Origin: a virus
Length of the DNA: 64,000 nucleotides
IMG/VR virus record: IMGVR_UViG_2788500025_000001
Span: 36,163 to 100,162 of that record
Strand: one strand, 5' to 3'
The notes beneath the pieces are model-generated. The model ran no database searches and was not told the origin of the DNA. It saw only the letters and a program-made list of their open reading frames with translations. Both the position numbers and the translations under genes were made by a program. Positions 21,035-59,172 of the stretch are shown here, piece after piece. Position 1 is the stretch's first letter, and the number at the start of each line of letters is the position of its first letter.

Positions 21035-21315
21035 ACATTACCGATCCGGTCACCGTCGAGGAATGGGGCCAGTACATCAGCAACCTGAGTGGGGCGAAGT
21101 TGTTTTCGCAAGCCATCGCAGCGAACACCCTCAACTTCGTGGGGATGCTTCAGAGCGAGGGTTTCAGCAGTGACGAGGTCACCGATGTCTTGCTGATGTT
21201 CGCCATGCGTTTCCGTGACACCAAACTCGACATGCCCAACGGTATCCCTGGCGAGTACATCTCCTACCCGGATCTTCTGGATTCGGTAGGCCGCCTATCG
21301 GACGCACAGGTATAG
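21031..21315 (+). CDS. Hypothetical protein
   Basis: ATGA overlap; GGAG RBS. Confidence 0.65.
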   Translation: MNITDPVTVEEWGQYISNLSGAKLFSQAIAANTLNFVGMLQSEGFSSDEVTDVLLMFAMRFRDTKLDMPNGIPGEYISYPDLLDSVGRLSDAQV

Positions 21316-21324
21316 GAGCCTCCC

Positions 21325-22017
21325 ATGTCTTTCAAAGCCCACCTACGTTCCATCCTTGCTTCCGAAGGGCTGCTTCCCTCAGATCGTGTTGCGGGCAGGT
21401 CCATGCCACGCCTCGACTGGATGATCCCGACCGCTGAGAAGGGAGGGGCGCGTGAGGAGAAGATGTCTGACGGGATGCTTCGCGTCTGGCGGTGGGACAC
21501 AGACCACGTCCACAAGCGCACCGGCAACCCCTACACTCGCTACCACCTGCTGGTGGGGTCAGCCTCCAAGCGGGCGAAGAACGCCCTGGCCTGGGAATAC
21601 CACACCTCAAAGGCCGCTCGGGACAAGGCAATCGACTCCTGGGTTTCCTACTACGACCGGAAGGCTCAAGAGAAGGCTGACCGGCAGGAGGCCGCCAAAA
21701 ACTTCCAGCATGGCCTCCAGGTCGGAGACATCCTCTCCGCGTCCTGGGGCTACAACCAGACCAACGTGAACTTCTACGAGGTCACGCGAGTCGTTGGGAA
21801 GGCAACCGTGGAGGTCCGAGAGGTTCAGTCGAAGGTCGTCCGCGAGTCCGGCCATGCCCTCTACGTCGTGCCTCGCAAAGGCAAGTGGACGGCTCGCAGC
21901 ACCACCATGAAGAAGCGCGTCAGCCCCAGCGGGCACGTCAAGATCAACAGTTCCATTTCCGCCTCCGAGTGGAGCGGCAAACCCATGTACGAAACGTCAC
22001 CCTACGCAGGCCATTAG
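21325..22017 (+). CDS. Leader-A protein with GDILSASWGYNQTNVNFYEV domain
   Basis: HLRSILASEGLL leader; RBS AGGAG. Confidence 0.75.
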   Translation: MSFKAHLRSILASEGLLPSDRVAGRSMPRLDWMIPTAEKGGAREEKMSDGMLRVWRWDTDHVHKRTGNPYTRYHLLVGSASKRAKNALAWEYHTSKAARDKAIDSWVSYYDRKAQEKADRQEAAKNFQHGLQVGDILSASWGYNQTNVNFYEVTRVVGKATVEVREVQSKVVRESGHALYVVPRKGKWTARSTTMKKRVSPSGHVKINSSISASEWSGKPMYETSPYAGH

Positions 22018-22026
22018 GAGAACCCC

Positions 22027-22356
22027 ATGAAGTCCCTGACAGCATCCGACCGCAAGACCCTCATTCGCCTGGCCTCATCCCTCCCCGTAGGTGACGAGAC
22101 CCGCAAGGCCCTTATCAACGGACTCGCCCAGACCCGTGAAGCGGGCCGCCCCTGGGGCGGCGACGGCTACGCGGCGAAGGCCGAGGACTACGACATCCCT
22201 CCCGCACAGGGGGGCAGCGGCTCCCCGCCGTGCCAGCCGAAGGGTGACGGACCCTGCTACCGCAAGCATCACGAGTACGGCGCGGCCAACAGCGGTGCCA
22301 ACGGCTCTGCCGCCCGGCGCAAGTACAACGAGTGGTATCGCGAAAACGCGATGTAG
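22027..22356 (+). CDS. Leader-B small protein
   Basis: LTASDRKTLIRLASSLPVGDETRKAL leader; AGGAG RBS. Confidence 0.75.
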   Translation: MKSLTASDRKTLIRLASSLPVGDETRKALINGLAQTREAGRPWGGDGYAAKAEDYDIPPAQGGSGSPPCQPKGDGPCYRKHHEYGAANSGANGSAARRKYNEWYRENAM

Positions 22357-22379
22357 TCGCCTGACGGTCCTGCCGTTGG

Positions 22380-22394
22380 CGGTATCTCGCCTAT
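22380..22394 (+). promoter_or_regulatory. Late motif variant CGGTAT-N5-CTAT
   Basis: One mismatch; upstream of 22448. Confidence 0.65.
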
Positions 22395-22447
22395 GGAGCC
22401 TCCCACGGTAGAGTGCATCTGCACCCTTCCACTGGGAGGCTTTCGCC

Positions 22448-23677
22448 TTGTTCGCTACCCTTACCGAAGCCCTCAAGCGGCGCATGATCGAGGAGATCCG
22501 GTACTACTGGGGCCAAGACCCCCAGTATCGGGACTCGCTTGTGCCCAACATTCAGGGTCGGTTTTCTTTCCAGGAGCGACCACAGCAGGCCATCATCCTC
22601 AAGAGTCAGTCGGCCAGCCCCTACCAGATGGCGGCGGACCACTACCAGGGAGCGATTGTCTCCTACTGCTACCTCACGAAGGTGTACGGGCAGCGAGGCA
22701 CGAGCATCGAGTGGGTGCGGGAGAACGCCGTCGCGATCCAGGCGAACAACGGGGTGTTCCCAACCCCTGCCGGGGTCTACTACATCGAGGTCCGCTCCGA
22801 AGTCATCGACGTTCGCGGTGTCCCGAAGGAAAAACTGGTCTTCTATGTGGACCCCCTCCTGGAGGTCATCGACCAGCGAGCCACGATGCTTGATCCCAGG
22901 CTCTACGAAGTAGGCGCGGGGTCGTTCCATCCAGGATCACTCCGGGTCTATGAGATGCCTGGCAGTGTCCCGTACTATGAGAACGTCAACTACACGGCTG
23001 ACTCCACCACAGGCAGGATCACACTCGCCAGCCCCCTCGCTCCCAACACCTACCTGTCGGTGGACTATCGCTACGCGGGCACCAGCAGCGGGCCGTTCCC
23101 CCTGCCCATGAACGGGGCCAACGTCGAAGCCATTCCAGGCGTCGTCCTGGCCTTCGGTCGTCAAGCCTACGATGGGGACATCATGGCAGTCGTGGTGGGC
23201 ACGACTCGGGAGACAGTGGCGAAGGAGTTCGGCGGGCGGTGGGAGATGAACATCGACTTCGACATCATGGCGCGGGACGTCTACGCCCAGGGTGAGATCA
23301 CCGACCGCACGTTGATGTACCTCTACACCGATGCGAGGGACCGGCTCTCTACGGAGGGCATTGAGATCACGATGGTCACCATGGGCGGCGAGGCTGAGGA
23401 GATCTACGACGATGTGGGCGATGACTACTTCTACACCGCCAACATCTCGATGACGATCATGACCGACTGGGCGATCCATGTGCCCATCGGACGCACGCTG
23501 ATCCGAGCCGAGGCGAACACGGTGTCTGAGACTGAGATGGTCGCCGGGCTCACGGACGACCAGTTGATCGAGATGGGGTCACCGACCGGCCTGCACTACG
23601 CGGAGACCCTGAACCTCATTGAGATCCGTGATCCCTACTTCCGGGGGCGCACGAAGACCTACGACCTGATCCGGTAG
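22448..23677 (+). CDS. Putative neck/tail-completion structural protein
   Basis: TTG start with GGAGG RBS; beta-rich with terminator-like C-terminal half; function inferred from context. Confidence 0.5.
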   Translation: MFATLTEALKRRMIEEIRYYWGQDPQYRDSLVPNIQGRFSFQERPQQAIILKSQSASPYQMAADHYQGAIVSYCYLTKVYGQRGTSIEWVRENAVAIQANNGVFPTPAGVYYIEVRSEVIDVRGVPKEKLVFYVDPLLEVIDQRATMLDPRLYEVGAGSFHPGSLRVYEMPGSVPYYENVNYTADSTTGRITLASPLAPNTYLSVDYRYAGTSSGPFPLPMNGANVEAIPGVVLAFGRQAYDGDIMAVVVGTTRETVAKEFGGRWEMNIDFDIMARDVYAQGEITDRTLMYLYTDARDRLSTEGIEITMVTMGGEAEEIYDDVGDDYFYTANISMTIMTDWAIHVPIGRTLIRAEANTVSETEMVAGLTDDQLIEMGSPTGLHYAETLNLIEIRDPYFRGRTKTYDLIR

Positions 23678-23686
23678 TGATCCTAT
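23672..23686 (+). promoter_or_regulatory. Late motif CGGTAG-N5-CTAT
   Basis: Exact match; its TAG is the stop of ORF 22448. Confidence 0.85.
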
Positions 23687-23722
23687 GGCCTCGACAGAGG
23701 TACTTCCCATTGGAGAGACGCT

Positions 23723-24187
23723 ATGCCCCGCAACCTTACTGCCGCCGACCGGTCCACCCTCATTCGTCTTGCCTCGACGCTTCCTGTGGGGAGCGAGGAG
23801 CGGAAGGCCATCCTCGCCGGGCTCGCTGCCGAAGGTCTGCTTTCCGACAAGCAAGCCTCTCGCCCCCCTCTGGACAAGGAGCAGATCGCCGAGATCGAGA
23901 AGGAGGGCTGGCCCGACATGATGTCGCAGGCTGAGGCGTCCGACTGGGCCGTGAACACGATCCGGCAGGCATGGCGGGAGCGAGGCATGGTCGGAAAGCC
24001 CGAACAGATGATGCGCGAGGAGTTCGACCGCATCCGTAAGGGGAACCTCGACTATCTCAAGTACCTCCGGGTGAGCCGTGCTGGGTCGAAGTTCCGTATC
24101 GACCGGGCGATGCGTCGTGCGATCTACATCCAGTACCTCGCCAAAAACAAGAAGGTGAAGTCCGAGTTGTGGCGCAGGCTCCGGTAG
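23723..24187 (+). CDS. Hybrid leader-B/A small protein
   Basis: LTAADRSTLIRLASTLPVGSEERKAILAGLAAEGLLSDKQA. Confidence 0.75.
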   Translation: MPRNLTAADRSTLIRLASTLPVGSEERKAILAGLAAEGLLSDKQASRPPLDKEQIAEIEKEGWPDMMSQAEASDWAVNTIRQAWRERGMVGKPEQMMREEFDRIRKGNLDYLKYLRVSRAGSKFRIDRAMRRAIYIQYLAKNKKVKSELWRRLR

Positions 24188-24196
24188 CGTGCCTAT
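24182..24196 (+). promoter_or_regulatory. Late motif CGGTAG-N5-CTAT
   Basis: Exact match; its TAG is the stop of ORF 23723. Confidence 0.85.
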
Positions 24197-24224
24197 GGGC
24201 CGCCTCCAGGCAAAGGAGTCCCCC

Positions 24225-24596
24225 ATGGGCAACCTACGCAACATCCTTTCCGAAGAGGGCCTGCTTTCCGACAGGTTGAAGACCGCTGGAGGCACCGGAT
24301 GGCCTCTCACCCCGAAGGACATCAAGGTCGGGCTGCGCCGCATCAAGAAGGTCTGCTACGACTCTGGGGCGTTCCGAGAGGCTTTCCTCGATGGAATGGA
24401 TTGGGGGAGGGTCGAGTTCGACAAGCCCGAGAAGAACCCCTACCGATCCAGCGGAACGCTTGTGTGGTGGCGGGTGTACCCAATGGGCAAGGTCGGAGAC
24501 AAGAAGAGTGACTACATCTACGGCTATGTGATGACCGAATGGGTCAGCGGACCCAAGGGCATCGAGATCTCTGGCACGGTGACCGTCAAGCACTGA
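24225..24596 (+). CDS. Leader-A small protein
   Basis: NLRNILSEEGLLSDRLKTA; AAGGAG RBS. Confidence 0.75.
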   Translation: MGNLRNILSEEGLLSDRLKTAGGTGWPLTPKDIKVGLRRIKKVCYDSGAFREAFLDGMDWGRVEFDKPEKNPYRSSGTLVWWRVYPMGKVGDKKSDYIYGYVMTEWVSGPKGIEISGTVTVKH

Positions 24597-24600
24597 TCTC

Positions 24601-24615
24601 CGGTAGCGTGCCTAT
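24601..24615 (+). promoter_or_regulatory. Late motif CGGTAG-N5-CTAT
   Basis: Exact match; upstream of the endolysin. Confidence 0.85.
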
Positions 24616-24654
24616 GGGTAGGGTCTGGCGAGCCTTTAGCCGGAGAAACCTCTC

Positions 24655-25479
24655 ATGCCATCAACCATCCGAAAGGGATCACGCGGAAGCGATGTGATCC
24701 TCTGCCAAGACAGCCTCACCAAGAAGGGCTACCCCTGCACCGCTGACGGGATCTTCGGGTCCGGCACCGAGTCGAAGGTCAAGCGGTTCCAGGCCGCCAA
24801 CGGCCTTGTGGCTGACGGCATCGTCGGCAACGGGACCTGGGGCAAGTTGCTCGCCGAGAACCCGGATGATGTGGGCATCGCTGCCCCCTCCCCTCTCCCT
24901 CCCGTGATCGCCCATGCTCAGAGCCTCGGCTACGAGACCTGGGGTGATCCCTGGCGTCTGTTCCTGTTTGGAGTCCGCTCCGCAGAGCGGAAGGCTGACG
25001 CCTTCGACGACATGCTGGGATGCGCCTACGTCAATGACGACGGCCTGTGGGAAGCCTTCTACTGGCCAGGAACCACGGACCCCGGTGCGTACTACCTGGA
25101 GCATCCGATGAACAGTGCGGGCTGCGCCATCCTCGTGAAGGGCCAGTACCTCGACACCTGGACCATCGACCTCCACGGCGGCAAGTATGAGGCTCTGTGC
25201 CAGAGGGCGGGCGAGGTGTCTGTTTTTCGTGATGATTCGATGGACGACAAGTTGGACCTCGACCCCAGCACCATCGCTACCGGCTACTTTGGGATCAACC
25301 TCCATGCCGCAACAAGGACCGAGCACCAGACTTCTACGGTCGTTGGCAAGTGGTCCGCAGGCTGCCAGGTCCATGCCTCGGCTGATGGGTTCGCCAAGAT
25401 GATGGAGTTGGCCCACCAGCAGCAGGACAAGACGGGCCGCAAGACCTTCTCGTACACCCTCATGGACAAGTGGTGGTGA
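24655..25479 (+). CDS. Endolysin-like protein: peptidoglycan-binding domain plus L,D-transpeptidase(YkuD)-like domain
   Basis: DGIFGSGTESKVKRFQAANGLVADGIVG PG_binding_1 pattern; GINLH..SAGCQV His/Cys motif. Confidence 0.8.
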   Translation: MPSTIRKGSRGSDVILCQDSLTKKGYPCTADGIFGSGTESKVKRFQAANGLVADGIVGNGTWGKLLAENPDDVGIAAPSPLPPVIAHAQSLGYETWGDPWRLFLFGVRSAERKADAFDDMLGCAYVNDDGLWEAFYWPGTTDPGAYYLEHPMNSAGCAILVKGQYLDTWTIDLHGGKYEALCQRAGEVSVFRDDSMDDKLDLDPSTIATGYFGINLHAATRTEHQTSTVVGKWSAGCQVHASADGFAKMMELAHQQQDKTGRKTFSYTLMDKWW

Positions 25480-25487
25480 GGTGAACC

Positions 25488-25664
25488 GTGCTGGATGCCT
25501 TCATCATCGAACGCATCCGTCGCAGGGAGAAGCGTGAGAAGAGGGAGCGAGAGCGCCCTCGTCTACGCATCCCCCCTCCTGATCCCCCTCGGCCTCCGAT
25601 CCCGGAGGTTCAGGAGGACAAGGACTCAGGACGTGGGGTCACCATCATCGACTTTGGGCTCTGA
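25488..25664 (+). CDS. 58-aa small protein MLDAFIIERIRRRE...RGVTIIDFGL (not in ORF track)
   Basis: GTG start with GAGGTG RBS; manual translation; stop TGA 25662-25664. Confidence 0.7.
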   Translation: MLDAFIIERIRRREKREKRERERPRLRIPPPDPPRPPIPEVQEDKDSGRGVTIIDFGL

Positions 25665-25859
25665 ACAGAGCCCTCGGCGGATCAGGTGCATCGCCTCCCG
25701 CCCGAACCAGCCCTGGAGACTCCACGCCAACCCGGTGTCGATCAACTCCTGCCAGGCGGCGTAGTACGCATCCATCTGCTCCTCCGGGGTGTCTCCAGGA
25801 GGGCGTTCCACCCCTTCGCAGATCAGGATGGTTTTGGAGGATGGCAGAGGCTTGCTCAT
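25626..25859 (-). CDS. Small hypothetical phage protein
   Basis: AWQELIDTGLAWSLQGWFGR pattern recalled from phage proteins. Confidence 0.7.
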   Translation of the reverse strand: MSKPLPSSKTILICEGVERPPGDTPEEQMDAYYAAWQELIDTGLAWSLQGWFGREAMHLIRRGLCSEPKVDDGDPTS

Positions 25860-25907
25860 GGGGGGACCTTACCCGCTGGGTAGGGTGAGCGCACAGAGAG
25901 GTCACCA

Positions 25908-26369
25908 ATGCCCATCTACGAGTTCACCTGTCAGTCCTGCGGCCTGCGCTTTGAGAAACTGTTCCGGCGCGTGTCGGACCAACCCACACACCCATGCCCC
26001 AACTGCGAGGGTGAAGGCATCAAGCAGGTCTCAGCGGCCAGTTTTGCGTTCAAGCACCCGGCCAGCCAACGCAACGGACCTCTCCCACCCAGCACCGGAA
26101 CGAGCGACGACTGGAACTTCGACAAGGCCATCGGCCATGACGCTGCTGAGAAGTGGGGCAAGATTCACGAGAACAACGCCCGCAAAGACAAGATGGTGGC
26201 CGAGGCGGCGAAGGAAGGCCGTGGGATCAGCCGTGACCACCTGGTCCGAAAGCGGGAGGGGGGCTACCGTGAGGTCACCGAGGGCGAGCGCAAGTACATC
26301 AACCAGAACCGCGAAGCCGCTCACGCTGTCTCCCAGGCAGCCACAAAGCAAGCCAAAGAGAAGAAGTAG
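25908..26369 (+). CDS. FmdB-like zinc-ribbon protein
   Basis: MPIYEFTCQSCG..CPNC..SAAS. Confidence 0.85.
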   Translation: MPIYEFTCQSCGLRFEKLFRRVSDQPTHPCPNCEGEGIKQVSAASFAFKHPASQRNGPLPPSTGTSDDWNFDKAIGHDAAEKWGKIHENNARKDKMVAEAAKEGRGISRDHLVRKREGGYREVTEGERKYINQNREAAHAVSQAATKQAKEKK

Positions 26370-26485
26370 AGCCCGGTTCGATACCCCGTCTATACTCGGC
26401 ACCAGGTGTAACACTGGCCTTCGTCGGTCGGGATCCCGCGCTTGCACCCTCTCAGCGCCGCTGAGTCAAGATCACGAGGTTCATC

Positions 26486-29400
26486 ATGTCCTTTCCAGGC
26501 TCCATTTACGCCCCTCCGGGCGTCTACACCCAGACTCTCTTTGAAGACCCCCTCCAGAGCATCGCGGGCAGCGTCCGCATCCCCCTGCTCATGGGTACGG
26601 GGTCCGAGATCCTGACCCAGAGCGGCCTGGAGTTGGTGCGCGGTTCGTCCTCGTCGGTTGACCAGCGCGTCGTCCAGGAAGACGAGACTGCTCGCGCTGT
26701 CGTGTCCATCACGGATGCTGGGGCTGTGACCCTGGGAGCCTTCGACGGCGTCTGGGACCGCATCCAGACGAAGCACTTCCCCATCGTGAACGGCAACGGC
26801 ACGGGCACCACGGCGACTGACTCCGCTTCGGTCAACGTCACCATCAACGGTGAGCCGGTTGTGGTCCTCGCCATTGACGGTGCGAAGGGCATCCTCACCC
26901 TGTCGAGCAGCCCCGATCTGGGCGACGAAGTGAAGGTGACCTACTACTTCAACCGCACCGACACCCTGATCACCGACACTCTCAGTGACCAGATTTCTCC
27001 CGACGCCCCCGAGATCATCGGTGCGGTCGGTGAGTCCTACGTCGTCATTGAAGGTGTCAACGACACGCTTTCCTTCACGGTGGACAGCGCGACCGTCGTG
27101 GACGTGACCATCACTCCTTCCGCCCCCGGCGGGTGGACCGCTGCACAGGTGGCCTCGTTCATCAACGCTGCGGCTGCTGGGACGAGCCTCACGGCTTCGA
27201 CCACGGTGGACAACCTCGGCAACACGGTCCTCTACATGACCGCTGACCGCGACATTGTGGTGGGCAACGGACTGGCGAACACCACCCTCGGTCTGAACCT
27301 CGGTGCCGACACGGGCCGAAACAAGACCTTCTACACCTTCCAGCGCCCCATCGTGGACGGCTCCAACGGTGGTGTGACTACCACTGACCCGGCTGACGTG
27401 ACGGTCAAGGTGGACGGCACCCAGGTGATCCCGACTGCTGTGGACGGGGCTTCCGGTGCTGTGGTCCTTCCCTTCGCGCCAGAAATCGGCGCTGTGGTCA
27501 CCTGCCAGTACTACTTCAACTCGTGGCAGGACACGTTCGACTACCTCCAGCACCGCTCCGTTGTCGAGATTACCCAGTGCGGGATCACCCCCGACCGGAA
27601 CGACTACATCGACGGCGCGGACTTCGTGCTCAAGGATGACAAGATCCTCTGGGGCACCGCAGCCACCGTCGAGGCAGGCGTCTACACCACAGGTGGGGTC
27701 TACCTCGATGACGTTCAGGTCTCCGAGACCCTGGTGGACACCCGCCAGTACCTCGCCGCCTGCTCTGCCGTGGTCAACACGAGCGTGAACCCGCCCGTCG
27801 AGAACCGCCTTGACTTCAAGTTGCCCCTCCAGCCAACCACCGGAAACGGTCGCTCCACCCCGCTGGGTGCCGAGACCTACGCCAAGGTGGCCAACGGACG
27901 GGTTGACCTTCCCACTGACCGTCCTGACCTCGTGTGGGCCTACTGGGGATACTCCCTGGAAGACGCTCTCGACCGTGGTCGCGTCGAGGTCACGAAGGTC
28001 GAATCTTCAACCAGCACCCTGACGCTGCGCGAGCCGGTTCCGGTCGGCGCAACTGTCTACGCTACCTTCTACTACAACACCCTCGTGGACCAGGCATACA
28101 GTGTTGCCTGTGACTCCGCTGGCGCAAGCGGCGTGGGCACCTACTCGGTGACCAACGAGGACGGCGTGGCACTCATGACCCCGCAGTTCGGCTCCAAGAG
28201 CGCCGCACTCGCTACGGTCACCGTCGAGTTCCCGAGCGGTTCCGAGCGCACGCCGGACTGCCGCTTTGAGGTCCCCTTCACCTCGACTTCCTTTGTCGGA
28301 CCTGTCGAGGAGGATGTGACCGTCACGTTCGCTTCCCAGGACGCAACCCTGGCGAAGTACGCGCTCCCCGGTGCTGGCCCCTACTACATGGTCCAGAACG
28401 CCAGTGACCAGTTGTCCATCAACATGCAGAACACTGGATTTCCGGGCGACATCGACCTGTCCACGGCCAGCCGTGCATGGGTTGTCGGTGACGAGGTTGT
28501 CTACAGCCCCGATGGCACCAACGAGTACGAGGACGGTGTGGCGACGACCAACAACGAGGTCGATCTGATGATCGACGGCGTGTTGATCCAGTCACGGGCC
28601 GACACGGGCGACCGTACTGCCGTCGTCGCAACGGACTTCCAGGACATCGGACGCTACGCGCAGTCCATCAACCGCGCAGCCTTCGGTGACTACGCCGATG
28701 CTGCGGGAGTCGCGCTCGCTCTGGCGGGGTCAACGGATGCGAACAACTTCCAACTGTCCGCCGAGGCTTCCAACATTGACGACTACTACGTCGGCTGGAC
28801 CGTCCGCATCACCAGTGGTGGTGAAGCAGGTAGCGAGGCCACCGTCACGTCCTACAACGGCACCACCAACGCGGTGGTCGTCGGTGCGGGGCTCGGTGGT
28901 GATCCTGGTTTGGCCGACTACGTCCTCTACAACCCGGACACGCTTCCGGTGTTGAAGGCGTCCACGCGCTTCCTGTCCACGACGACCATCGCAGCGGGCG
29001 AGTTCGACATCATCAACTTCCGAATCGTTGGTTCGGCTGTCAGCCTGGGCACTCTGACCACGCTGACCGGCGACCTCACGGGTGGTTCGCCCTACACTTC
29101 GGCTACCGATCTGGCTGCGGCTGTGCAGACCGCGATGCAGAACGCTATCGATCTGGTTGCGGGTGCAGTGCCTCAGCAGGTGCTCGTCACGGCGGACTCC
29201 GATGGGCGGCTCACCTTCAAGTTGGTCCCCGATGGGACTGACCTCACGGGTGCCTACCTGGAGTTCGTCGCCGATGCAGCCCCCGCCCAGGACTTCTGTG
29301 TCCTCGCCGGTCTGGACACCGACACGGCTGGCGGCACCCAGACTCAACTTCACAACAGTGCCATCGCCAGCACCTTTGAGTTCGCGGGTGCTACCACCAC

Positions 29401-31651
29401 CCTGCGCCTCAACGACCGCCTGTTCCTCCAGAACCGCATCCAGCCTGGTGCGGGAACGGCCAACATGGACACCCAGTTTGTGCTCGACCAGTGCCAGTTG
29501 AAGGTGATGGGAGGTACGGGCCTCGCCCAGGCCGCCCTGACCGCCAACGAGCAGGGTCAGGCTGCCATCCGGGCCACCATCATGCCCCCCACCGCCTACG
29601 GTGAGGTCGGCTTCGCGGATGGTCAGGACGCTGCTGGACAGCCTGTCGTGACCTTCTTCGCGGCTGGCGGCACCACCGACCAGAACAACGTCTTCCAGAT
29701 GACCTACGAAGGCACTCCGGTCACTGTCGAGTTCGTCCAGGCGGACGGCGTGACCCCGATTGCTGCTGGCGGTTCGGCAGATGTTCCGCTGGGACCGTTG
29801 ACCGACGCAGGGAGTATCCTGGGTCAGATCAACGCAGCCATGGCCACCGCTGGGGTCACGGGGATTTCTCAGGAGGGTGCGGGCATTCGCTTCCGTGGTT
29901 CCTCCTCGGCATCCTCGGCCAGCATCGTCATTGGCAGCGCCAGCGCCAACACCGACCTGGGCTTCGACGACGGCGACATCGTGTACCGCACGGCTGTCCC
30001 TGTGGAGTCCCTGGTCAGTGTCCTCAACTCCAGCGACCTTTGGGACGACGGTGCTGGACGCGGCTTCGCCAAGACCGTCCGGGACGACACCAACGCCGCC
30101 TTCCTGTTCCTTCAGGACACGGGTACGGCAGGTGCCGGTACGACCTCCTCCATCGCCATCGAGGATGCAGCAACGGACAACGCGCTGCGCCCCGGCAGCG
30201 GTCTGGGGGCTACGGACGGTGACGGCAACGTGGGTGAAGCAGCCATCGACGGCTACTACGTTACCTCGTCTGACCCTGTGTCCGGCTCTGGTACTGCCAA
30301 CACCTCCATCCTCAACTCGGGAACGGGTCAGGACGGAAACGTCGGTGAGACCTACCGTGACCTGGTGACCGGATTGACCTTCACCATCCTGCCTCGTGCG
30401 GGCGGTGCGGCCTACCCGGCTACCGCGACCCTGACCTTCACGGTTCGGGCGAGCGTCACGACGGATGCCAACCTCCCGGTCAATACCATCCCTGGTATTG
30501 AACTCTATGTCTCCAACACTTCTGGGGTCGTCGTTGGCGACACCGCTGTGGTGCAGACCTACGAGAAGGGTGGCAACCAGCCTTCCGTGGGCGACATCTA
30601 CTATGTCTCCTACGACTACCAGAAGCAGGACTACTCCACGGCGCTGTTCACGAAGCAGTCTGCTGTCGAGGCGACCTACGGCGCAGCCAGCCCCAACAAC
30701 CCGGTCTCGCTGGGCGGTTACCTGGCCATCCTCAATGGTGCGGTGCTCATCGCCATCAAGCAGGTGAAGAAGGACACTGACACCGACGCTGACGGTGCGA
30801 AGGACACGGCGTCCACGGATGCCTACCTCGCTGCCATCGACGAGGTGGAAGGCACCCTTCCAGGAGGTTCCTACCCGGACATGATCATTCCGCTGAAGGG
30901 TGATTCCCTGGAGTTGTTCCAGTACCTTGCACGGTCCTGCGACATCCAGTCGAGCATCCGCTACCGCGCCGAGCGCACTGCCATCTGTGGACTCTCCGCA
31001 GGTACGCAGCCGCGTGAAGCCGGTGAGACGGCGGAAGCCATCGCCCGGACCCGGATGCGCCTCGTGTACCCGGACATCTGCACCCTGAGCCTGTCACGGG
31101 CTGACGGGTCCACGGACTCCTACCTGCTCGACGGCACCTACATCGCCGCCGCGTGGTCCGGGAACCGTGCCTCGCCGACCATCGACGTGGCGACCCCGTG
31201 GACGCGGGGCCGTATCTTCGGGTTCGATGAGATCGCTCGGAAGTTGGATGCAGTCCAGGAGAACCAGGTCGCTACTCGTGGGGTCACGGTGTTCAGCCAG
31301 CGCCAGTCCATCATCGAGTGCCGCCAGGGTCTGTCCACCGACATGACCAACGTGCTGACCAAGACCCCGACCGTGATCACCATCGCGGACGAGGTCCAGC
31401 GCCAGGCTCGTGCCACCCTGGACAAGTTCATCGGGATCAAGTTCCTGTCGAACGTCACCACGACCATTGAGGGTCAGTTGTCCAAGACCCTCAAGCAGTT
31501 GGTCGCGGCTCAGATCATCAACGCCTTCACGGGCGTCACCGCCAACGTGTCGCCTGATGATCCGACCGCAGCCGAAGTGGAGGCGTACTACCAGCCCGTC
31601 TTCCCGCTGCTCTACATCGTCGTGACGTTCAACCTGCGTTCCAGTCTGTAG
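26486..31651 (+). CDS. Contractile tail sheath protein, very large (1721 aa)
   Basis: N-terminal PPGVYTQT; C-terminal IADEVQRQARATLDKFIG..YQPVFPLLYIVVTFNL sheath signature. Confidence 0.85.
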   Translation: MSFPGSIYAPPGVYTQTLFEDPLQSIAGSVRIPLLMGTGSEILTQSGLELVRGSSSSVDQRVVQEDETARAVVSITDAGAVTLGAFDGVWDRIQTKHFPIVNGNGTGTTATDSASVNVTINGEPVVVLAIDGAKGILTLSSSPDLGDEVKVTYYFNRTDTLITDTLSDQISPDAPEIIGAVGESYVVIEGVNDTLSFTVDSATVVDVTITPSAPGGWTAAQVASFINAAAAGTSLTASTTVDNLGNTVLYMTADRDIVVGNGLANTTLGLNLGADTGRNKTFYTFQRPIVDGSNGGVTTTDPADVTVKVDGTQVIPTAVDGASGAVVLPFAPEIGAVVTCQYYFNSWQDTFDYLQHRSVVEITQCGITPDRNDYIDGADFVLKDDKILWGTAATVEAGVYTTGGVYLDDVQVSETLVDTRQYLAACSAVVNTSVNPPVENRLDFKLPLQPTTGNGRSTPLGAETYAKVANGRVDLPTDRPDLVWAYWGYSLEDALDRGRVEVTKVESSTSTLTLREPVPVGATVYATFYYNTLVDQAYSVACDSAGASGVGTYSVTNEDGVALMTPQFGSKSAALATVTVEFPSGSERTPDCRFEVPFTSTSFVGPVEEDVTVTFASQDATLAKYALPGAGPYYMVQNASDQLSINMQNTGFPGDIDLSTASRAWVVGDEVVYSPDGTNEYEDGVATTNNEVDLMIDGVLIQSRADTGDRTAVVATDFQDIGRYAQSINRAAFGDYADAAGVALALAGSTDANNFQLSAEASNIDDYYVGWTVRITSGGEAGSEATVTSYNGTTNAVVVGAGLGGDPGLADYVLYNPDTLPVLKASTRFLSTTTIAAGEFDIINFRIVGSAVSLGTLTTLTGDLTGGSPYTSATDLAAAVQTAMQNAIDLVAGAVPQQVLVTADSDGRLTFKLVPDGTDLTGAYLEFVADAAPAQDFCVLAGLDTDTAGGTQTQLHNSAIASTFEFAGATTTLRLNDRLFLQNRIQPGAGTANMDTQFVLDQCQLKVMGGTGLAQAALTANEQGQAAIRATIMPPTAYGEVGFADGQDAAGQPVVTFFAAGGTTDQNNVFQMTYEGTPVTVEFVQADGVTPIAAGGSADVPLGPLTDAGSILGQINAAMATAGVTGISQEGAGIRFRGSSSASSASIVIGSASANTDLGFDDGDIVYRTAVPVESLVSVLNSSDLWDDGAGRGFAKTVRDDTNAAFLFLQDTGTAGAGTTSSIAIEDAATDNALRPGSGLGATDGDGNVGEAAIDGYYVTSSDPVSGSGTANTSILNSGTGQDGNVGETYRDLVTGLTFTILPRAGGAAYPATATLTFTVRASVTTDANLPVNTIPGIELYVSNTSGVVVGDTAVVQTYEKGGNQPSVGDIYYVSYDYQKQDYSTALFTKQSAVEATYGAASPNNPVSLGGYLAILNGAVLIAIKQVKKDTDTDADGAKDTASTDAYLAAIDEVEGTLPGGSYPDMIIPLKGDSLELFQYLARSCDIQSSIRYRAERTAICGLSAGTQPREAGETAEAIARTRMRLVYPDICTLSLSRADGSTDSYLLDGTYIAAAWSGNRASPTIDVATPWTRGRIFGFDEIARKLDAVQENQVATRGVTVFSQRQSIIECRQGLSTDMTNVLTKTPTVITIADEVQRQARATLDKFIGIKFLSNVTTTIEGQLSKTLKQLVAAQIINAFTGVTANVSPDDPTAAEVEAYYQPVFPLLYIVVTFNLRSSL

Positions 31652-31674
31652 CCCTCAGCGGCACACAGCAGGTA

Positions 31675-31715
31675 GAAGCCCCCAGTCCGAAGCCCTCGGC
31701 TGGGGGCTTCGTTCG
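31675..31715 (+). terminator. Intrinsic terminator-like hairpin
   Basis: GAAGCCCCCAG / CTGGGGGCTTC stem after the sheath gene; weak T tail. Confidence 0.7.
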
Positions 31716-31716
31716 T

Positions 31717-31731
31717 CGGTAGGTAACCTAT
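31717..31731 (+). promoter_or_regulatory. Late motif CGGTAG-N5-CTAT
   Basis: Exact match, directly after the terminator. Confidence 0.85.
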
Positions 31732-31768
31732 GGACTCACCACAGTATCATCGTAGGAGTGGTCCCATC

Positions 31769-32278
31769 ATGCCCCGCACCATCACCGCAGCCGACCGTAG
31801 TGCCCTGATTCGCCTTGCCTCCACCATGGAGAAGGGCTCCCCTGAGCGGAAGGCCATCCTCGCCGGACTGTCGAAGCAAGCCGAAGCCCCCATGCCAGAC
31901 GACGTGGGCGCGGAGGTTTGGCAGCAGTTCAGCGGGAAAGTAAACAAGTCGGTGGCCTTGCTGGAAAGGGCAGGAGCACGGCTGGTCAAGTACAACCCCC
32001 GCCGAGGGCCGTTTGACTACGCACACTTTACTGCGGGGCCGTACAAGTTTGCGCTTTCCGCAGAGGACTTAGCGAATGACTCTGCGGTGGCTTCGGCCAC
32101 CCGCCAGTGGCGCAAGATCATGGAGGTTGCTGATTCCTTCGACAATGTTTCCGATCCCTTCCACGACTCTATTTACTCCAAACTCAAGAACGCCATGGGC
32201 AGTAGCAAGGGGCGTTCCATCGCTTACCACATCGTCGCGGATGCGATCAAAAGCACCGGGAAAAAGGTGTGGTCGTGA
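31769..32278 (+). CDS. Leader-B small protein
   Basis: ITAADRSALIRLASTMEKGSPERKAILAGLSKQA. Confidence 0.75.
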   Translation: MPRTITAADRSALIRLASTMEKGSPERKAILAGLSKQAEAPMPDDVGAEVWQQFSGKVNKSVALLERAGARLVKYNPRRGPFDYAHFTAGPYKFALSAEDLANDSAVASATRQWRKIMEVADSFDNVSDPFHDSIYSKLKNAMGSSKGRSIAYHIVADAIKSTGKKVWS

Positions 32279-32511
32279 GCAAACTACGCAATATCCTCGC
32301 CTCCGAGGGCCTTGTCGCCGGACTGGAGAAGTCGGCCAGGGTCACCACGAAGAAGGTGACCTTCCAACACCACCGTGGCCGGGAGACTGTGACCATTTCG
32401 GGGGACGCCAAAGCCGTAGGTCTTGCAGAAACGTACCTGAAGAACTCCTGGCAGAACGCCATGGCGGCTGAGGAGTGCCAGTTGGAACTCTGGAAGTGCC
32501 AGGACGAGTGA
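32275..32511 (+). CDS. Leader-A small protein
   Basis: KLRNILASEGLVAGLEKSA; GTGA overlap. Confidence 0.7.
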   Translation: MSKLRNILASEGLVAGLEKSARVTTKKVTFQHHRGRETVTISGDAKAVGLAETYLKNSWQNAMAAEECQLELWKCQDE

Positions 32512-32562: not shown

Positions 32563-34242
32563 ATGTCTCGCAAGACCGCCAAAGCAGATGTGATCCCGGT
32601 TCGACAGCAGAACCAGTACAACTGCATGACTACCTCACTGGCCATGGCGCTTCGCGCCCTCGGCGTGCCGGACGAGGAGTGTGCGGTGCAACGGGTGAAC
32701 AAGGTCGTGGGTGCGATGCCTCTCCGTGGTGCTGCCTGGGAGCCGTTGCTCGCAGCAGCAAACCACTACGGGATGAGGGCTACCCTGACCCTGCCTTCCA
32801 CAGTGCGGCAGTTGAAGCAGTGGACCGATGCAGGCACCCCTGTCGTCATCGCATGGAACCCGGAGAACCGGGAGTGGTCCCATGCCTCACTGGTGTTCGA
32901 TGTGGACGACGACCTGAATGTCTACGTCGCTGACCCCAACATCCCGGACCCCGACGAGACTGTGCGAGTGGTTCCGAAGGCTGAGTTTTACGGCAAGTGG
33001 TACGAGAAGTCCCCCCAGGGGTTCCTGATCCGACGCCCGGCCTGTGCCATCCAGCGGGAGATCACCGCTGACGGGAGACAGGTCATGGCATCATCAAACA
33101 AACGCCCCAACCCGCCCATAGAGTTCCTGGACGGCGGCGATGACCTCATGGTCATGGTGGCCGCAGAGCCGGTTGAGGAGGACGTCAAGGACCGCGACCT
33201 CCCAGAGCCCCCCGACGAGGAGATGCTGGCTGACGGTATTCCCCACCTGGTGGACGCCTACTACAGGGATATGGAGTTGTGGGAGAAGTGGCAGCGCCAG
33301 GGATGGTGGCCGCGACCTGTCAAGGTGTGGAAGTGGAAGGTTGTCGTCCTCCACCGCCCTACGAACAAGCACTTTGAGAGCGATCCCTTCGACACGAAAA
33401 GGGAGGCCACTCGCATGGCCATGGCGGCTATCCCCAAAGTGTTGGCCCACCGCCGCCCGCGATGGCTGAAGCCTGCCAACCCCAACGAATACAAGGGCCA
33501 CCGGAGAACGGCATCTGCCAAGCGTGTGGCTTCTCGGAAGACCGCCCAGTGGAAGCCCCTGTTCGACGGAAAGGGCAAGAAGTACATCACCGATGATCTC
33601 CGGGTCTATGTGTCCCCAGAGGACGTTTGGGAAACCGTGAGGGACCGTGACGTCCCCGACCTCTACGAGGTTGCTGACCCAGAGATGCTGGCTGACGGTA
33701 TTCCCGAGTTGATGGATGCCTACGAGAACGCCGAACGCGACCACGCGAAGTGGGTCCGTCAAGGCTGGTGGCCGCGACCGGAGAAGGTCCAGAAGTGGCG
33801 GATCTACGTCACGCACCGTCCCACGAAGAAGAACTTTGAGAGCAAAGGGCTCTACGACTCCGAGCGCGAAGCCCTCCGCATGGCGGACATCGCCATCCCC
33901 AAGATTCAAGCACGTCGGCGTCCGCGCTGGCTCGTACCAGACTCCGACAATGAGGCGGCTACCATGAGATCAGCGAAGAAAACCAAACGCAAGGACCGCA
34001 CTACCGAGATCCGCGAGAAGAAGGACAAGAGCAAGGTCAAGGTCAAGTTCACCCCCGGTGGAGGTCGCAACCCTCACGCCGAGGACGCCTTGAGCCGTAA
34101 GCCGACTCGCGGCCACAAACGCAAGGAGCGTGCTCGCGCTGTCGGCAAGGGTCACAGTCGGAAGCAGAAGCACAAGGGGCAACGCGCCTACGCTTCTGCT
34201 GCTCGCGTGGCGACTATGTTCATGCTCAAGGACAAGGAGTAG
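32563..34242 (+). CDS. C39-like cysteine peptidase plus duplicated ~90-aa domain plus basic tail
   Basis: RQQNQYNC, SHASLV, VADP papain-like triad; EMLADGIP..RQGWWPRP x2. Confidence 0.8.
   Translation: MSRKTAKADVIPVRQQNQYNCMTTSLAMALRALGVPDEECAVQRVNKVVGAMPLRGAAWEPLLAAANHYGMRATLTLPSTVRQLKQWTDAGTPVVIAWNPENREWSHASLVFDVDDDLNVYVADPNIPDPDETVRVVPKAEFYGKWYEKSPQGFLIRRPACAIQREITADGRQVMASSNKRPNPPIEFLDGGDDLMVMVAAEPVEEDVKDRDLPEPPDEEMLADGIPHLVDAYYRDMELWEKWQRQGWWPRPVKVWKWKVVVLHRPTNKHFESDPFDTKREATRMAMAAIPKVLAHRRPRWLKPANPNEYKGHRRTASAKRVASRKTAQWKPLFDGKGKKYITDDLRVYVSPEDVWETVRDRDVPDLYEVADPEMLADGIPELMDAYENAERDHAKWVRQGWWPRPEKVQKWRIYVTHRPTKKNFESKGLYDSEREALRMADIAIPKIQARRRPRWLVPDSDNEAATMRSAKKTKRKDRTTEIREKKDKSKVKVKFTPGGGRNPHAEDALSRKPTRGHKRKERARAVGKGHSRKQKHKGQRAYASAARVATMFMLKDKE
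33220..33930 (+). repeat. Internal domain duplication
   Basis: Identical 24-mer GAGATGCTGGCTGACGGTATTCCC at 33220 and 33682; protein similarity continues to RRPRWL. Confidence 0.85.
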
Positions 34243-53348: not shown

Positions 53349-53363
53349 CGGTAGGGTTTCTAT
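53349..53363 (+). promoter_or_regulatory. Late motif CGGTAG-N5-CTAT
   Basis: Exact match; heads the capsid assembly cluster. Confidence 0.85.
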
Positions 53364-53875: not shown

Positions 53876-54451
53876 GTGCGTCGGTTTGCCGAAAACTACG
53901 TCAACTACCAAGAGCGGGCCACCGAGTTTTCTGTCGGAGACGTCGTGGTGCCGTTTGGCCTGTGGGATTCCCAGAGCGGTCGTGTCACGGCTGTGTGGCC
54001 TGCTATTGGTATGGTGGATGTAGAGTTCCCATCCGGCAACGCACGCTTCCCCGTCGAGGAACTTCAGCGCATGGGCGCTGATGGGCAGGCCGAACCGCCC
54101 AGAACGGACTCCGCTCCGGGCGGGGGTGGGTCTGTTTCTGTGCCGGGTGGTCCGTACCCAGACAAGAAGAAGGCAGCCAATCGTGTGGCGCGGGCGTTCG
54201 TCAAGCAGTCCCTTTACTGGGCGCAGAAGGACCGCCAGTACCGCATGACAGGACCAGAGAGCGTGGAGGGGAAACCCAACTGCCCAAAGTGTCCTGAGAT
54301 CCCTCTCCAGAAGGCGATCTACAAACGCCGCGACGGATCCAGCGAACGGCTCCAGGGCTGCCCTGGTTGCATGTTCCTCATCAAGGACGCGGACATTGTG
54401 AACTTCGGCCCTGTTAGTGCCGAGGAGATTGAGATCGAGGGGCAGGGCTGA
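53876..54451 (+). CDS. SH3-like plus Zn-ribbon head-associated protein
   Basis: VGDVV..GRVTAV..VDVEF; KKAANRVARAF; CPKC..CPGC. Confidence 0.7.
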   Translation: MRRFAENYVNYQERATEFSVGDVVVPFGLWDSQSGRVTAVWPAIGMVDVEFPSGNARFPVEELQRMGADGQAEPPRTDSAPGGGGSVSVPGGPYPDKKKAANRVARAFVKQSLYWAQKDRQYRMTGPESVEGKPNCPKCPEIPLQKAIYKRRDGSSERLQGCPGCMFLIKDADIVNFGPVSAEEIEIEGQG

Positions 54452-58299: not shown

Positions 58300-59172
58300 A
58301 TGTCTGTGAACAACAGCGTAAAGGCGAAGTTGATCAGCGAGTACATCGGCACTGCTGCCGGTCGTGCGAAGTTGGCTGCTTCAATGACTCAACCCCTGCG
58401 ACTCCGTCGCGATTACATGGCCGTAGGCCGAAAGACATTTCTCGTCGAACAGTTGCCTGATGGGGCACTTCCGATTTACGACAAGGATGCGGACGTCACC
58501 GCTTACGTCGTTGGTGAAGAAGGTGAGAACATCATCGCCGTCACCAAGCCTCGTCGTGTGATCTTCCCGCTCTTTGAGATCGCGTCGAACCCCGAGATCC
58601 CGCTCACGCAGATCAAGGAACGTCGTTTCGACCTCATCGAGCGTGCCCAGGACCTGGCTCGTGCCCAGATCCAGGCTGCGGAAGACGAGCGTGTCTTCGC
58701 CGTCCTCGATGCCATCGCCACCAACGGCTTCGACAGCGTGGGAGCCGTCAACGCGGACATCCCCGTCGTCGCTCCCCTCAGTGGTGATGTCCTGGCCGAC
58801 GCATTCAGCCTGATCGAACGTCATGACCTGCGAGTTGCTCGCGTGTTCATGAACGCTCGTGACTACGCTGACCTGCGTAAGTTCGGACGCGACATCCTGG
58901 ACATCGAGACCCAGCGTGACCTGCTCAAGACTGGTCTGATGGCTACCCTTTGGGGCGCTCAGATCATCGTCAGCCGCCTGGTCCCTGTCGGAACCGTCTA
59001 CGTCTGCTGCGAGCCCGAGATGTTTGGCCGGATGCCTGTCCGCACCGAACTGACCGTCCTCAGCGCCGACGATCCGAAGGCCCGCACCATCGGCTTCTCG
59101 TGCTTTGAGAACCTGGGTATCGGCGCGTTCAACCCTCGCGGTCTGGCCCGTCTGACCATCACTCGTCCGTAG
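58300..59172 (+). CDS. Major capsid protein (HK97-fold, inferred)
   Basis: LAASMTQPLRLRRDYMAVGRKTFLVEQLPDGALPIYDKD; follows scaffold; strong RBS; followed by a terminator. Confidence 0.85.
   Translation: MSVNNSVKAKLISEYIGTAAGRAKLAASMTQPLRLRRDYMAVGRKTFLVEQLPDGALPIYDKDADVTAYVVGEEGENIIAVTKPRRVIFPLFEIASNPEIPLTQIKERRFDLIERAQDLARAQIQAAEDERVFAVLDAIATNGFDSVGAVNADIPVVAPLSGDVLADAFSLIERHDLRVARVFMNARDYADLRKFGRDILDIETQRDLLKTGLMATLWGAQIIVSRLVPVGTVYVCCEPEMFGRMPVRTELTVLSADDPKARTIGFSCFENLGIGAFNPRGLARLTITRP

What the first reader, a model, noticed from the sequence alone, without database searches (positions are those of the whole stretch)
22027..32278. Leader family B (LTAxDRxxLIRLAS-x4-S/D-x-[ET]RKA[IL]xxGL) on three unrelated proteins
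Seen: a ~35-aa near-identical helical-hairpin-like leader starts ORFs 22027, 23723 and 31769 and ends in REA or KQA. The mature parts share nothing visible. ORF 23723 joins leader B to the tail of leader A, which links the two families. Inference: this is a second addressing module.
Basis: partly seen in the sequence, partly recalled or inferred. Interest (0 to 1): 0.75.

Follow-up and report, generated by a model that had tools for sequence, protein, structure and literature searches.

The report
Portable helical-hairpin tag on huge-phage proteins
Many unrelated late proteins of this uncultured huge phage and its relatives carry the same undescribed ~32-residue helix-loop-helix module, usually at the very N-terminus, which most likely docks variable cargo into the assembling phage head, although neither packaging nor cleavage has been shown.

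Summary
ORFs 22027, 23723 and 31769 start with the same module ([LI]TAxDRxxLIRLASxLPxGSxER[KR]AILxGL, then [KR]-x-A). The 141-kb contig holds 8 copies. Related records hold 4-24 each. A profile finds 1,956 protein clusters in public data, yet Pfam, PHROGs, NCBIfam and the PDB have no match.

AlphaFold models give an autonomous helix(12)-loop(6)-helix(11) hairpin. Cargo parts are hypervariable (about 40 clusters among 63 proteins) and include an Alt-like ADP-ribosyltransferase.

The module is not only a leader. In single-copy proteins it is N-terminal. It is also internal or at the extreme C-terminus in multi-copy proteins, including a 777-aa three-copy "hub" and small two-copy proteins encoded next to the capsid gene in relatives.

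Leader genes share a strand-specific promoter-like motif (CGGTAG-N5-CTAT) with the head protease/scaffold operon. A [KR]-x-A motif flanks the module on its cargo side and is repeated in the scaffold-like protein.

The scan has noted other shared tags in other huge phages, but not this sequence.

The parts
22027..22356 (+). Leader-B protein 1 (109 aa). Tag is residues 1-39 (nt 22027-22143): M-KS-LTASDRKTLIRLASSLPVGDETRKALINGL-AQTREA. Cargo is a Gly/Pro-rich 70-aa tail. Second gene of an operon that starts with leader-A gene 21325.
   Evidence: orthologues in L015 and L030
23723..24187 (+). Leader-B protein 2 (154 aa). Tag is residues 1-45 (nt 23723-23857), i.e. module plus leader-A-like tail AAEGLLSDKQA. 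Cargo is a basic helical 109-aa part.
31769..32278 (+). Leader-B protein 3 (169 aa). Tag is residues 1-38/40 (nt 31769-31888) ending SKQAEA. Cargo of 124 aa has no relatives found.
21284..21298 (+). Promoter-like motif CGGTAG-N5-CTAT ahead of operon 21325 (leader A) -> 22027 (leader B).
23672..23686 (+). Promoter-like motif CGGTAG-N5-CTAT, 37 nt upstream of the region of ATG 23723.
31717..31731 (+). Promoter-like motif CGGTAG-N5-CTAT, about 50 nt upstream of ATG 31769. It overlaps the alternative ATG 31730, which argues that 31769 is the true start.
53349..53363 (+). The same promoter-like motif ahead of the head-assembly operon (53391, 53876, protease, scaffold-like).
54451..55890 (+). Head maturation protease candidate (479 aa). 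Candidate enzyme for [KR]-x-A cleavage.
   Evidence: phrog_18299, 9e-13
55887..57407 (+). Acidic scaffold-like protein (506 aa) with 7 [KR]-x-A-[SG] motifs and a conserved C-terminal 45 aa.
58300..59172 (+). Major capsid protein (290 aa, HK97 fold, phage-G type).
21325..22017 (+). Leader-A protein (MSFKAHLRSILASEGLL...), the companion tag family.
24225..24596 (+). Leader-A protein (MGNLRNILSEEGLLSDRLKTA...). Its tail is shared with ORF 23723.
32269..32511 (+). Leader-A ORF whose tag continues with the leader-B tail AGLEKSAR (reciprocal hybrid).
32563..34242 (+). C39-like peptidase (559 aa). Alternative candidate processing enzyme, often close to leader-B genes.

Best explanation
Leader B is a self-folding module of about 32 residues: helix 1 (xDRxxLIRLAS), a 6-residue loop (xLP[VK]GS) and helix 2 (xER[RK]AILxGL). 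It works as a portable docking domain. Late in infection the phage makes 10-35 such modules per genome, mostly as the first 35-40 residues of small, fast-evolving cargo proteins. It also places them in multi-copy proteins (a three-copy 777-aa 'hub', and small two-copy proteins) that would act as multivalent organisers. I infer that the module binds a component of the assembling prohead interior. A scaffold- or core-associated component seems more likely than the highly conserved capsid protein itself. In this way cargo is built into the head, to be delivered with the DNA. The conserved [KR]-x-A that lies between module and cargo is probably a site for the head maturation protease, which would free the cargo after assembly. 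Shown here: the module, its fold prediction, its distribution and positions, the cargo diversity, the shared promoter-like motif and the motif statistics. Inferred: the binding partner, encapsidation and cleavage.
For: (1) The module is real, autonomous and portable. There are 8 copies in the contig and 46 loci in IMG/VR contigs. A profile finds 1,956 representative proteins at E<=1e-3 and 1,066 at E<=1e-10. Related records hold 4-24 copies each. AF2 gives helix-loop-helix for every copy, with pLDDT 80-96 in the two-module mini-protein, a disordered linker and pTM 0.38. (2) Cargo is hypervariable while the tag is conserved: 63 proteins fall into 40 cargo clusters. (3) In single-copy proteins the tag sits at residue 1: 66 of the 69 single-copy carriers among the 150 best hits, and the other 3 have a Met directly before the module. 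A GGAG lies 7-13 nt upstream of each start. (4) The tag genes are co-regulated with head assembly. CGGTAG-N5-CTAT occurs 13 times on the + strand of the window against 0.03 expected, and 25 times on + against 3 on - in the contig. It precedes leader-B and leader-A genes, the hub, and the operon holding the head protease and the scaffold-like protein. (5) Cargo types fit injected head proteins: an Alt-like RNA-polymerase ADP-ribosyltransferase, pentapeptide-repeat proteins, VP2-type and ParB-like DNA binders. From the literature, T4 Alt is packaged through a capsid-targeting sequence. (6) A putative processing site exists. [KR]-x-A starts within 12 residues after helix 2 in 154 of 247 modules (62% against 19% expected), peaking at +4/+5. 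It lies within 14 residues upstream of C-terminal modules in 23/41 and of internal modules in 45/81, against about 21% expected. So it tends to sit on the cargo side. [KR]-x-A-[SG] is enriched in the scaffold-like protein (7 against 1.2 expected, p=2e-4) and absent from the capsid protein. It is also enriched in scaffold homologues of three relatives. (7) In relatives L043-L049 a two-module protein is encoded directly after the capsid gene.
Against: There is no direct evidence of encapsidation, of a binding partner or of cleavage. No cultured phage carries the module, so no virion proteome can be consulted. The closest complete relative, LR745208.1, has an 86% identical capsid protein but neither leader B nor leader A. 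The tag is therefore dispensable for this capsid type and probably does not bind the capsid protein itself. The promoter-like motif also drives an endolysin-like gene and the C39-like peptidase, so it marks late genes in general rather than only virion genes. [KR]-x-A is low in information, and part of it may simply be the C-cap of helix 2. The hub is not universal among carriers. Earlier, analogous 'shared tag' findings of this scan were later priced low for the capsid-loading reading.
Confidence: 0.45

Rival explanations
1. Retained assembly or oligomerisation domain. The module is never removed. It links proteins to one another or to the hub in a multivalent network, which could be in the virion interior or elsewhere. 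On this view the [KR]-x-A motif is only part of the fold.
For: Modules occur internally and at the extreme C-terminus, and in 2-4 copies per protein. Some proteins consist of little more than two modules (P0038). Hub modules are conserved in each of their three positions.
Against: AF2 does not pack the two modules of P0038 together (pTM 0.38). The hub is missing or very diverged in some carriers. The cargo-side bias of [KR]-x-A and its repetition in scaffold homologues suggest processing.
Confidence: 0.2
2. Address for another destination. The module docks proteins to a tail or baseplate component, or to an intracellular site or compartment set up by the phage, rather than to the head interior.
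For: Leader-B genes lie among tail-like genes as well: a 1,721-aa protein with a sheath-like C-terminus (26486-31651) and a pectinesterase-like protein (41032). The shared promoter-like motif is general to late genes.
Against: Typical cargo is small, basic or enzymatic (Alt-like ART, DNA binders), as in head-internal proteins. The two-module gene sits next to the capsid gene in relatives. The flanking motif is shared with the scaffold-like protein.
Confidence: 0.12
3. Recognition and cleavage leader for the C39-like peptidase, in the manner of double-glycine leaders. The peptidase would cut after the A-G that ends helix 2 and so activate or release the proteins.
For: A C39-like peptidase gene (32563-34242; Pfam Peptidase_C39_2, 3.8e-8) follows leader-B gene 31769 and lies near leader-B genes in L029, L017 and L012. 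In L033 a C39 homologue itself carries a module. Helix 2 ends in A-G in about 65% of copies.
Against: The peptidase is also present in LR745208.1, which lacks the leader. Most leader-B genes are not next to it. Modules at C-termini and in several copies do not fit a leader-peptide logic. No ABC exporter was seen. The -2/-1 pair is A-G rather than G-G/A/S.
Confidence: 0.08
4. DNA tether. The basic hairpin binds the phage genome, so that tagged proteins ride into the capsid, and into the host, on the DNA.
For: Arginines are invariant or nearly so in both helices (R15 and R27 in ORF 31769 numbering). Some cargo is DNA-binding (VP2-like, ParB-like). Multi-copy proteins would gain avidity.
Against: A two-helix hairpin with a Pro/Gly loop and net charge of about +2 is not a known DNA-binding fold. 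There is no match to HTH families in Pfam or the PDB.
Confidence: 0.07

Closest known systems
Capsid targeting sequence (CTS) of phage T4 internal proteins (IPI-III, Alt), removed by the gp21 prohead protease (reviewed in PMC3012670, PMC9026906)
   Same: A short shared N-terminal tag sits on otherwise unrelated, fast-evolving late proteins. Cargo includes an Alt-like ADP-ribosyltransferase. A conserved putative protease motif lies between tag and cargo, and the same motif is repeated in the scaffold-like protein.
   Different: There is no sequence similarity. The tag is about 32 residues and folds as a helix-loop-helix, rather than about 10 residues. It also works at internal and C-terminal positions and in multiple copies. 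The putative site is [KR]-x-A, not L/I-x-E. There are 10-35 carriers per genome. Packaging is not shown.
C-terminal coat-binding helix-loop-helix of the phage P22 scaffolding protein (from my own knowledge; not recovered by any search here)
   Same: It is a small autonomous helix-loop-helix with conserved basic residues. In the hub and the two-copy proteins it sits at the extreme C-terminus. Bivalent carriers resemble a scaffold dimer.
   Different: No sequence or Foldseek relationship was found. It is mostly N-terminal on non-scaffold cargo. The separate acidic scaffold-like protein of this phage lacks the module. Coat binding is untested and is made less likely by LR745208.1.
Cargo-loading peptides of encapsulins and encapsulation peptides of bacterial microcompartments (from my own knowledge)
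   Same: These are terminal, position-flexible (N or C) short helical tags joined by a flexible linker to unrelated cargo, addressing it to the lumen of a protein shell. Encapsulin shells share the HK97 fold.
   Different: The sequence and length differ. Here the tags are often multi-copy and internal, and probably cleaved. The shell is a DNA-filled virus capsid.
Other shared N-terminal tags of huge phages noted by this scan (e1-370441, e1-5368238, e1-5379433, e1-5675126, e1-5340821)
   Same: The genomic logic is the same: one conserved tag, dozens of unrelated small late proteins, and absence from domain libraries.
   Different: The sequences are unrelated. Leader B is longer, folds as a hairpin, and is the only one of these for which I saw regular internal, C-terminal and multi-copy use and a dedicated multi-module hub.

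Membership tests
T4-type capsid targeting sequence | Short N-terminal peptide shared by head-internal proteins | tested here: inconclusive
   The tag is N-terminal in all single-copy carriers, but also internal or C-terminal in multi-copy proteins. Whether the carriers are head-internal is unknown.
T4-type capsid targeting sequence | Sequence related to the T4 CTS and an L/I-x-E cleavage site for a gp21-type protease | tested here: not met
   The consensus LTAxDRxxLIRLASxLPxGSxERRAILxGL-xKxA bears no resemblance. The flanking motif is [KR]-x-A.
T4-type capsid targeting sequence | Tag-dependent incorporation into proheads and removal during maturation | not testable with these tools
P22-type scaffolding coat-binding domain | Autonomous helix-loop-helix of about 30-40 residues with conserved basic residues | tested here: met
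   AF2 gives H6-17/H24-34 and H57-68/H75-86 with pLDDT 80-96, and all three hub copies are helix-loop-helix. Arginines are invariant or nearly so.
P22-type scaffolding coat-binding domain | Homology to known scaffolding proteins; binds the capsid protein | tested here: not met
   The homology half is not met: the profile found no relative in the PDB and there was no Foldseek match. The binding half could not be tested.
Encapsulin / microcompartment encapsulation peptides | Terminal tag (N or C), flexible linker, unrelated cargo | tested here: met
   (disordered linker).
Encapsulin / microcompartment encapsulation peptides | Binds the shell protein's luminal face | not testable with these tools
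   No complex prediction was available.
Double-glycine leader with C39 peptidase | N-terminal leader ending G-G/A/S, a dedicated C39 peptidase (usually on an ABC exporter), strict co-occurrence | tested here: not met
   The leader ends A-G in about 65% of copies. The C39-like gene is nearby only in some loci and is present in LR745208.1, which has no leader. No exporter was seen.
Any curated domain family (Pfam-A, PHROGs v4, NCBIfam 20, PDB sequences) | Profile match to the module | tested here: not met
   No hit to the module.

The most novel reading that the evidence does not exclude
Leader B is a self-contained, position-independent encapsulation domain. Together with multi-module organiser proteins (the three-copy hub, and the two-copy proteins next to the capsid gene), it would build a multivalent protein network inside phage-G-type giant capsids. 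Through that network each virion would carry a changeable set of 10-35 effector proteins (ADP-ribosyltransferase, DNA mimics, DNA binders) that the head protease releases at [KR]-x-A. This would be a programmable protein-delivery system on a much larger scale than T4's three internal proteins.
Probability: 0.25. Interest if true: 0.8.

Novelty: new variant of a known kind. Interest (0 to 1): 0.62.

Why it matters
If the tag does load proteins into the head, it marks which proteins of a very abundant, uncultured clade of huge phages are injected into the host. More than 2,000 close capsid-protein relatives exist in public data. The tagged set would then be a ready catalogue of candidate take-over and counter-defence effectors. 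It would also show that capsid targeting can use a folded, position-independent, multi-copy domain rather than a short N-terminal peptide. Finally, it would offer a 32-residue handle for loading foreign proteins into large capsids. Whatever its function, the module is an undescribed domain family with about 2,000 member clusters and deserves a family model.

Tried and rejected
- tblastn of the module, the hub and a two-module protein against 50,697 GenBank phage records found no match.
- A profile search of LR745208.1, Tunturi_5 and phage G found none, while a control on the own contig found 7.
- Foldseek of the hub model and of the two-module model against the PDB gave nothing significant.
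- A profile search against PDB sequences gave only a chance 14-residue match to Ndi1.
- An ESM Atlas search with the cargo of ORF 31769 gave no usable hit.
- I suspected a degenerate module in the scaffold-like protein ('CIRLATAM', 'LIKLAES'). HMM scores there are negative, so I rejected this.
- An internal translation start at the hub's second module (ATG plus AAGGAG in this phage) is not conserved in orthologues, so it is not a family feature.
- Pairing of two modules within one chain is not supported (pTM 0.38).
- Gene neighbours of P0038 carry no Pfam annotation.
- I could not identify which of the 150 carriers holds the ADP-ribosyltransferase domain; two guesses by regex followed by Pfam missed it.
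- The genome-contig scan could only use exact 8-mers of one copy. It returned a single phage-like contig binned in an Actinomycetota MAG.
- Literature searches for capsid-targeting tags in huge or jumbo phages found no description of this module.
Full report
**Context.** The window is part of a 141-kb IMG/VR virus record, about 31% complete by CheckV. The record comes from an uncultured huge phage.
- It encodes a large terminase (35723-37678), a portal (38594-40297), a head maturation protease candidate (54451-55890), an acidic scaffold-like protein (55887-57407) and a 290-aa HK97-fold capsid protein (58300-59172).
- The capsid protein is 86% identical to that of the 485-kb uncultured phage LR745208.1, 50% to Tunturiibacter phage Tunturi_5 and 41% to gp27 of Bacillus phage G.
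- More than 2,000 close capsid-protein relatives exist in public data.

**The observation.** ORFs 22027, 23723 and 31769 start with M-x(2-3)-[LI]TAxDRxxLIRLASx[LM]xxGxxxRKA[IL][IL]xGL, followed by TREA, DKQA or SKQA.
- The whole contig has 8 copies. A profile search of the contig scores 7 of them at E 1e-16 to 1e-24.
- DNA of the copies differs at synonymous positions (65% mean column identity). Each start has a GGAG 7-13 nt upstream.
- For the third gene, the family consensus, the Shine-Dalgarno and a promoter-like motif overlapping the alternative ATG 31730 all favour 31769.
- The mature parts are unrelated.
'AEGLLSDK' in ORF 23723 matches 'EEGLLSDR' of the adjacent leader-A gene at 17 of 21 nt, and a leader-A profile detects it.
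- I also found the reciprocal hybrid. Leader-A ORF 32269 continues 'AGLEKSARV', the leader-B tail seen in contig gene 6183. The two tag families therefore share their distal, [KR]-x-A-bearing part.

**How wide it goes.**
- A degenerate-pattern scan of IMG/VR found 46 loci. An HMM run on these loci gave 96 module copies.
- A profile of 75 copies searched against 1.84 billion representative proteins found 1,956 proteins at E<=1e-3 and 1,066 at E<=1e-10.
- Five larger related records hold 24, 12, 6, 7 and 4 copies.
- Pfam-A, PHROGs, NCBIfam and PDB sequences have no model or relative for the module.
- GenBank phages have no copy. LR745208.1, Tunturi_5 and phage G lack it, whereas the same search recovers 7 copies in the own contig.
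- The only hit in GTDB genomes is a phage-like contig binned into an Actinomycetota MAG.

**Anatomy.**
- Invariant or near-invariant positions, in ORF 31769 numbering, are L13, R15, L16, A17, G23, R27 and L31.
- AlphaFold2 predicts helix(12)-loop(6)-helix(11) for all three copies in the hub.
- It predicts the same, with pLDDT 80-96, for both copies of the 87-aa two-module protein P0038. There the linker is disordered and pTM is only 0.38, so the modules look autonomous and are not confidently paired.
- After helix 2 the consensus continues A-G-L-x-K-[TQ]-A-[AGS].

**It is not only a leader.**
- Among the 150 best carriers, 66 have one N-terminal copy. Three more have a single copy preceded by a Met, which are probably mis-called starts. 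The rest have 2-4 copies in N+internal, N+C, internal+C or N+internal+C arrangements.
- Only 30 of 81 internal copies have a Met nearby.
- A conserved 'hub' lies in the contig at 20717-23050 (777 aa), upstream of the window. Its order is: module, a 450-aa domain of unknown fold, a second module followed by GCEKLPxxxMRDNCEK, a Lys-rich linker, an EF-hand-like KKHQFTSEDNPNPKGNDKDGDG motif, and a third module as its last residues.
- Stand-alone versions of the hub's C-terminal half, with a module at each end, are encoded directly after the capsid gene in relatives L043-L049.
- The hub's N-domain is strongly present in one of five related records, weakly in one, and undetected in three.

**Cargo.**
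- 63 tagged proteins from the loci fall into 40 clusters. Most have no family.
- Among the 150 representatives there are an ADP-ribosyltransferase (Pfam ADPrib_exo_Tox 7e-22; PHROG 'Alt-like RNA polymerase ADP-ribosyltransferase' 8.5e-11), pentapeptide-repeat and beta-solenoid proteins, DUF2958, fusellovirus-VP2-type DNA-binding domains and ParB-like proteins.
- At syntenic positions between conserved late genes (a 409-aa protein, an endolysin-like protein, a 1,721-aa sheath-like protein, a C39-like peptidase), different relatives carry different tagged genes.
- This recalls, from my own knowledge, the polymorphic internal-protein locus of T-even phages.

**Regulation.**
- CGGTAG-N5-CTAT occurs 13 times on the + strand of the window against 0.03 expected.
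- In the contig it occurs 25 times on + and 3 times on -, each 37-55 nt (occasionally more) upstream of an SD-ATG.
- It precedes leader-B genes (23723, 31769, contig 6183, the hub), the operon 21325 -> 22027, and leader-A genes.
- It also precedes the endolysin-like and C39-like genes, a pectinesterase-like gene, and the operon that contains the head protease and the scaffold-like protein.
- Tagged genes therefore belong to the same, presumably late, regulon as head assembly.

**A candidate processing site.**
- [KR]-x-A starts within 12 residues after helix 2 in 154 of 247 modules (62% against 19% expected), concentrated at +4/+5.
- It lies within 14 residues upstream of 23 of 41 C-terminal and 45 of 81 internal modules (about 21% expected). 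So it tends to sit between module and cargo in either orientation.
- [KR]-x-A-[SG] occurs 7 times in the scaffold-like protein (1.2 expected, p=2e-4) and never in the capsid protein.
- It is likewise enriched in scaffold homologues of LR745208.1 (9 against 1.3), G001 and G002.
- It also occurs near the N-termini of the protease (IRKTAS) and the portal (RAKTAN).
- Repetition in a scaffold is what one expects of a prohead-protease site. This is inference; no cleavage is shown.

**Mechanism proposed.** The module is a folded docking unit that incorporates late proteins into the prohead interior, and the head protease then severs it at [KR]-x-A.
- LR745208.1 has an almost identical capsid protein but neither leader. 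I therefore think the receptor is a less conserved internal component (the scaffold or core, the protease extensions, or the hub) rather than the capsid protein.
- Multi-module proteins would give multivalency.
- My confidence in the head-loading reading is about 0.45. I set it this low partly because analogous tags found earlier by this scan were later priced low for that reading, and in one case turned out to be linked to a modifying enzyme.

**Rivals.**
- A retained assembly or oligomerisation domain (0.2).
- An address for another destination (0.12).
- A leader for the neighbouring C39-like peptidase (0.08). This is weakened because the peptidase also occurs in LR745208.1, which has no leader, and because C-terminal and multi-copy modules do not fit a leader logic.
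- A DNA tether (0.07).

**Comparison with known systems.**
- In function it is closest to the T4 capsid targeting sequence (PMC3012670, PMC9026906). It fails the sequence and cleavage-motif criteria of that family and differs in being folded, longer, position-independent and multi-copy.
- In architecture it resembles the C-terminal helix-loop-helix of the P22 scaffolding protein, and in logic the encapsulation peptides of encapsulins and microcompartments. No homology to any of them was detected.
- Literature searches found no description of this module.

**Verdict.** This is a new domain family and a new variant of the capsid-targeting idea, with its function still to be shown.

Noticed in passing
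window, 13 sites on the + strand: 14176, 14973, 21284, 23672, 24182, 24601, 31717, 32523, 37673, 40301, 40976, 44963, 53349: A strand-specific promoter-like motif CGGTAG-N5-CTAT (0.03 expected) lies 37-55 nt upstream of SD-ATG starts. It probably marks the late promoter class of this phage and defines a regulon of tagged genes, lysis-like genes and the head-assembly operon.
   Followed up: partly
contig 20717-23050 (L002:717-3047), upstream of the window: A 777-aa 'hub' protein carries three leader-B modules (N-terminal, internal, extreme C-terminal), a 450-aa domain with no PDB fold match, a GCEKLPxxxMRDNCEK motif and an EF-hand-like KKHQFTSEDNPNPKGNDKDGDGKxNEP motif. It is conserved in 17 or more database proteins.
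   Followed up: partly
window 55887-57407: An acidic scaffold-like protein has repeated KK[KS]A[SG] motifs (5 KKxA against 0.44 expected) and a C-terminal 45 aa (…RPQPKRASKGAKTLGG…LSKLWDSAPDVSRFF) conserved at about 80% in relatives. The latter is a likely capsid-binding end.
   Followed up: partly
window 15016-15864 (residues about 205-245): This ORF shares the Cys-containing motif EKYPWPECIKDQEKEYGSKEIAEKVCGKIKSQSQGKSAA with hub orthologues and with the two-module proteins, where it directly precedes the C-terminal module. Here only a degenerate remnant of the module follows.
   Followed up: no
L007/L008:1981-2982 (IMG/VR relatives): A single 334-aa open frame holds two complete tag-plus-cargo units in tandem, the second starting with its own Met. 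This could be a fused pair or a polyprotein to be cut.
   Followed up: no
window 17612-21034: A 1,140-aa helicase-like protein (phrog_62, 4.9e-31) sits in an operon driven by the same late-type motifs (14176, 14973). It might be a virion-carried enzyme.
   Followed up: no
L058 (RFZO01000031.1, Actinomycetota MAG contig, 68% GC): A related phage fragment, with a leader-B gene and a homologue of the 1,721-aa protein, is binned in an Actinomycetota MAG. Together with distant capsid-protein similarity to Mycobacterium and Gordonia phages, this is a weak hint at an actinobacterial host.
   Followed up: partly
LR745208.1 (W02), whole record: The closest complete relative (capsid protein 86% identical, terminase 56%) lacks both leader A and leader B, yet keeps the C39-like peptidase and a scaffold rich in [KR]-x-A-[SG]. 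It may use other tags.
   Followed up: partly
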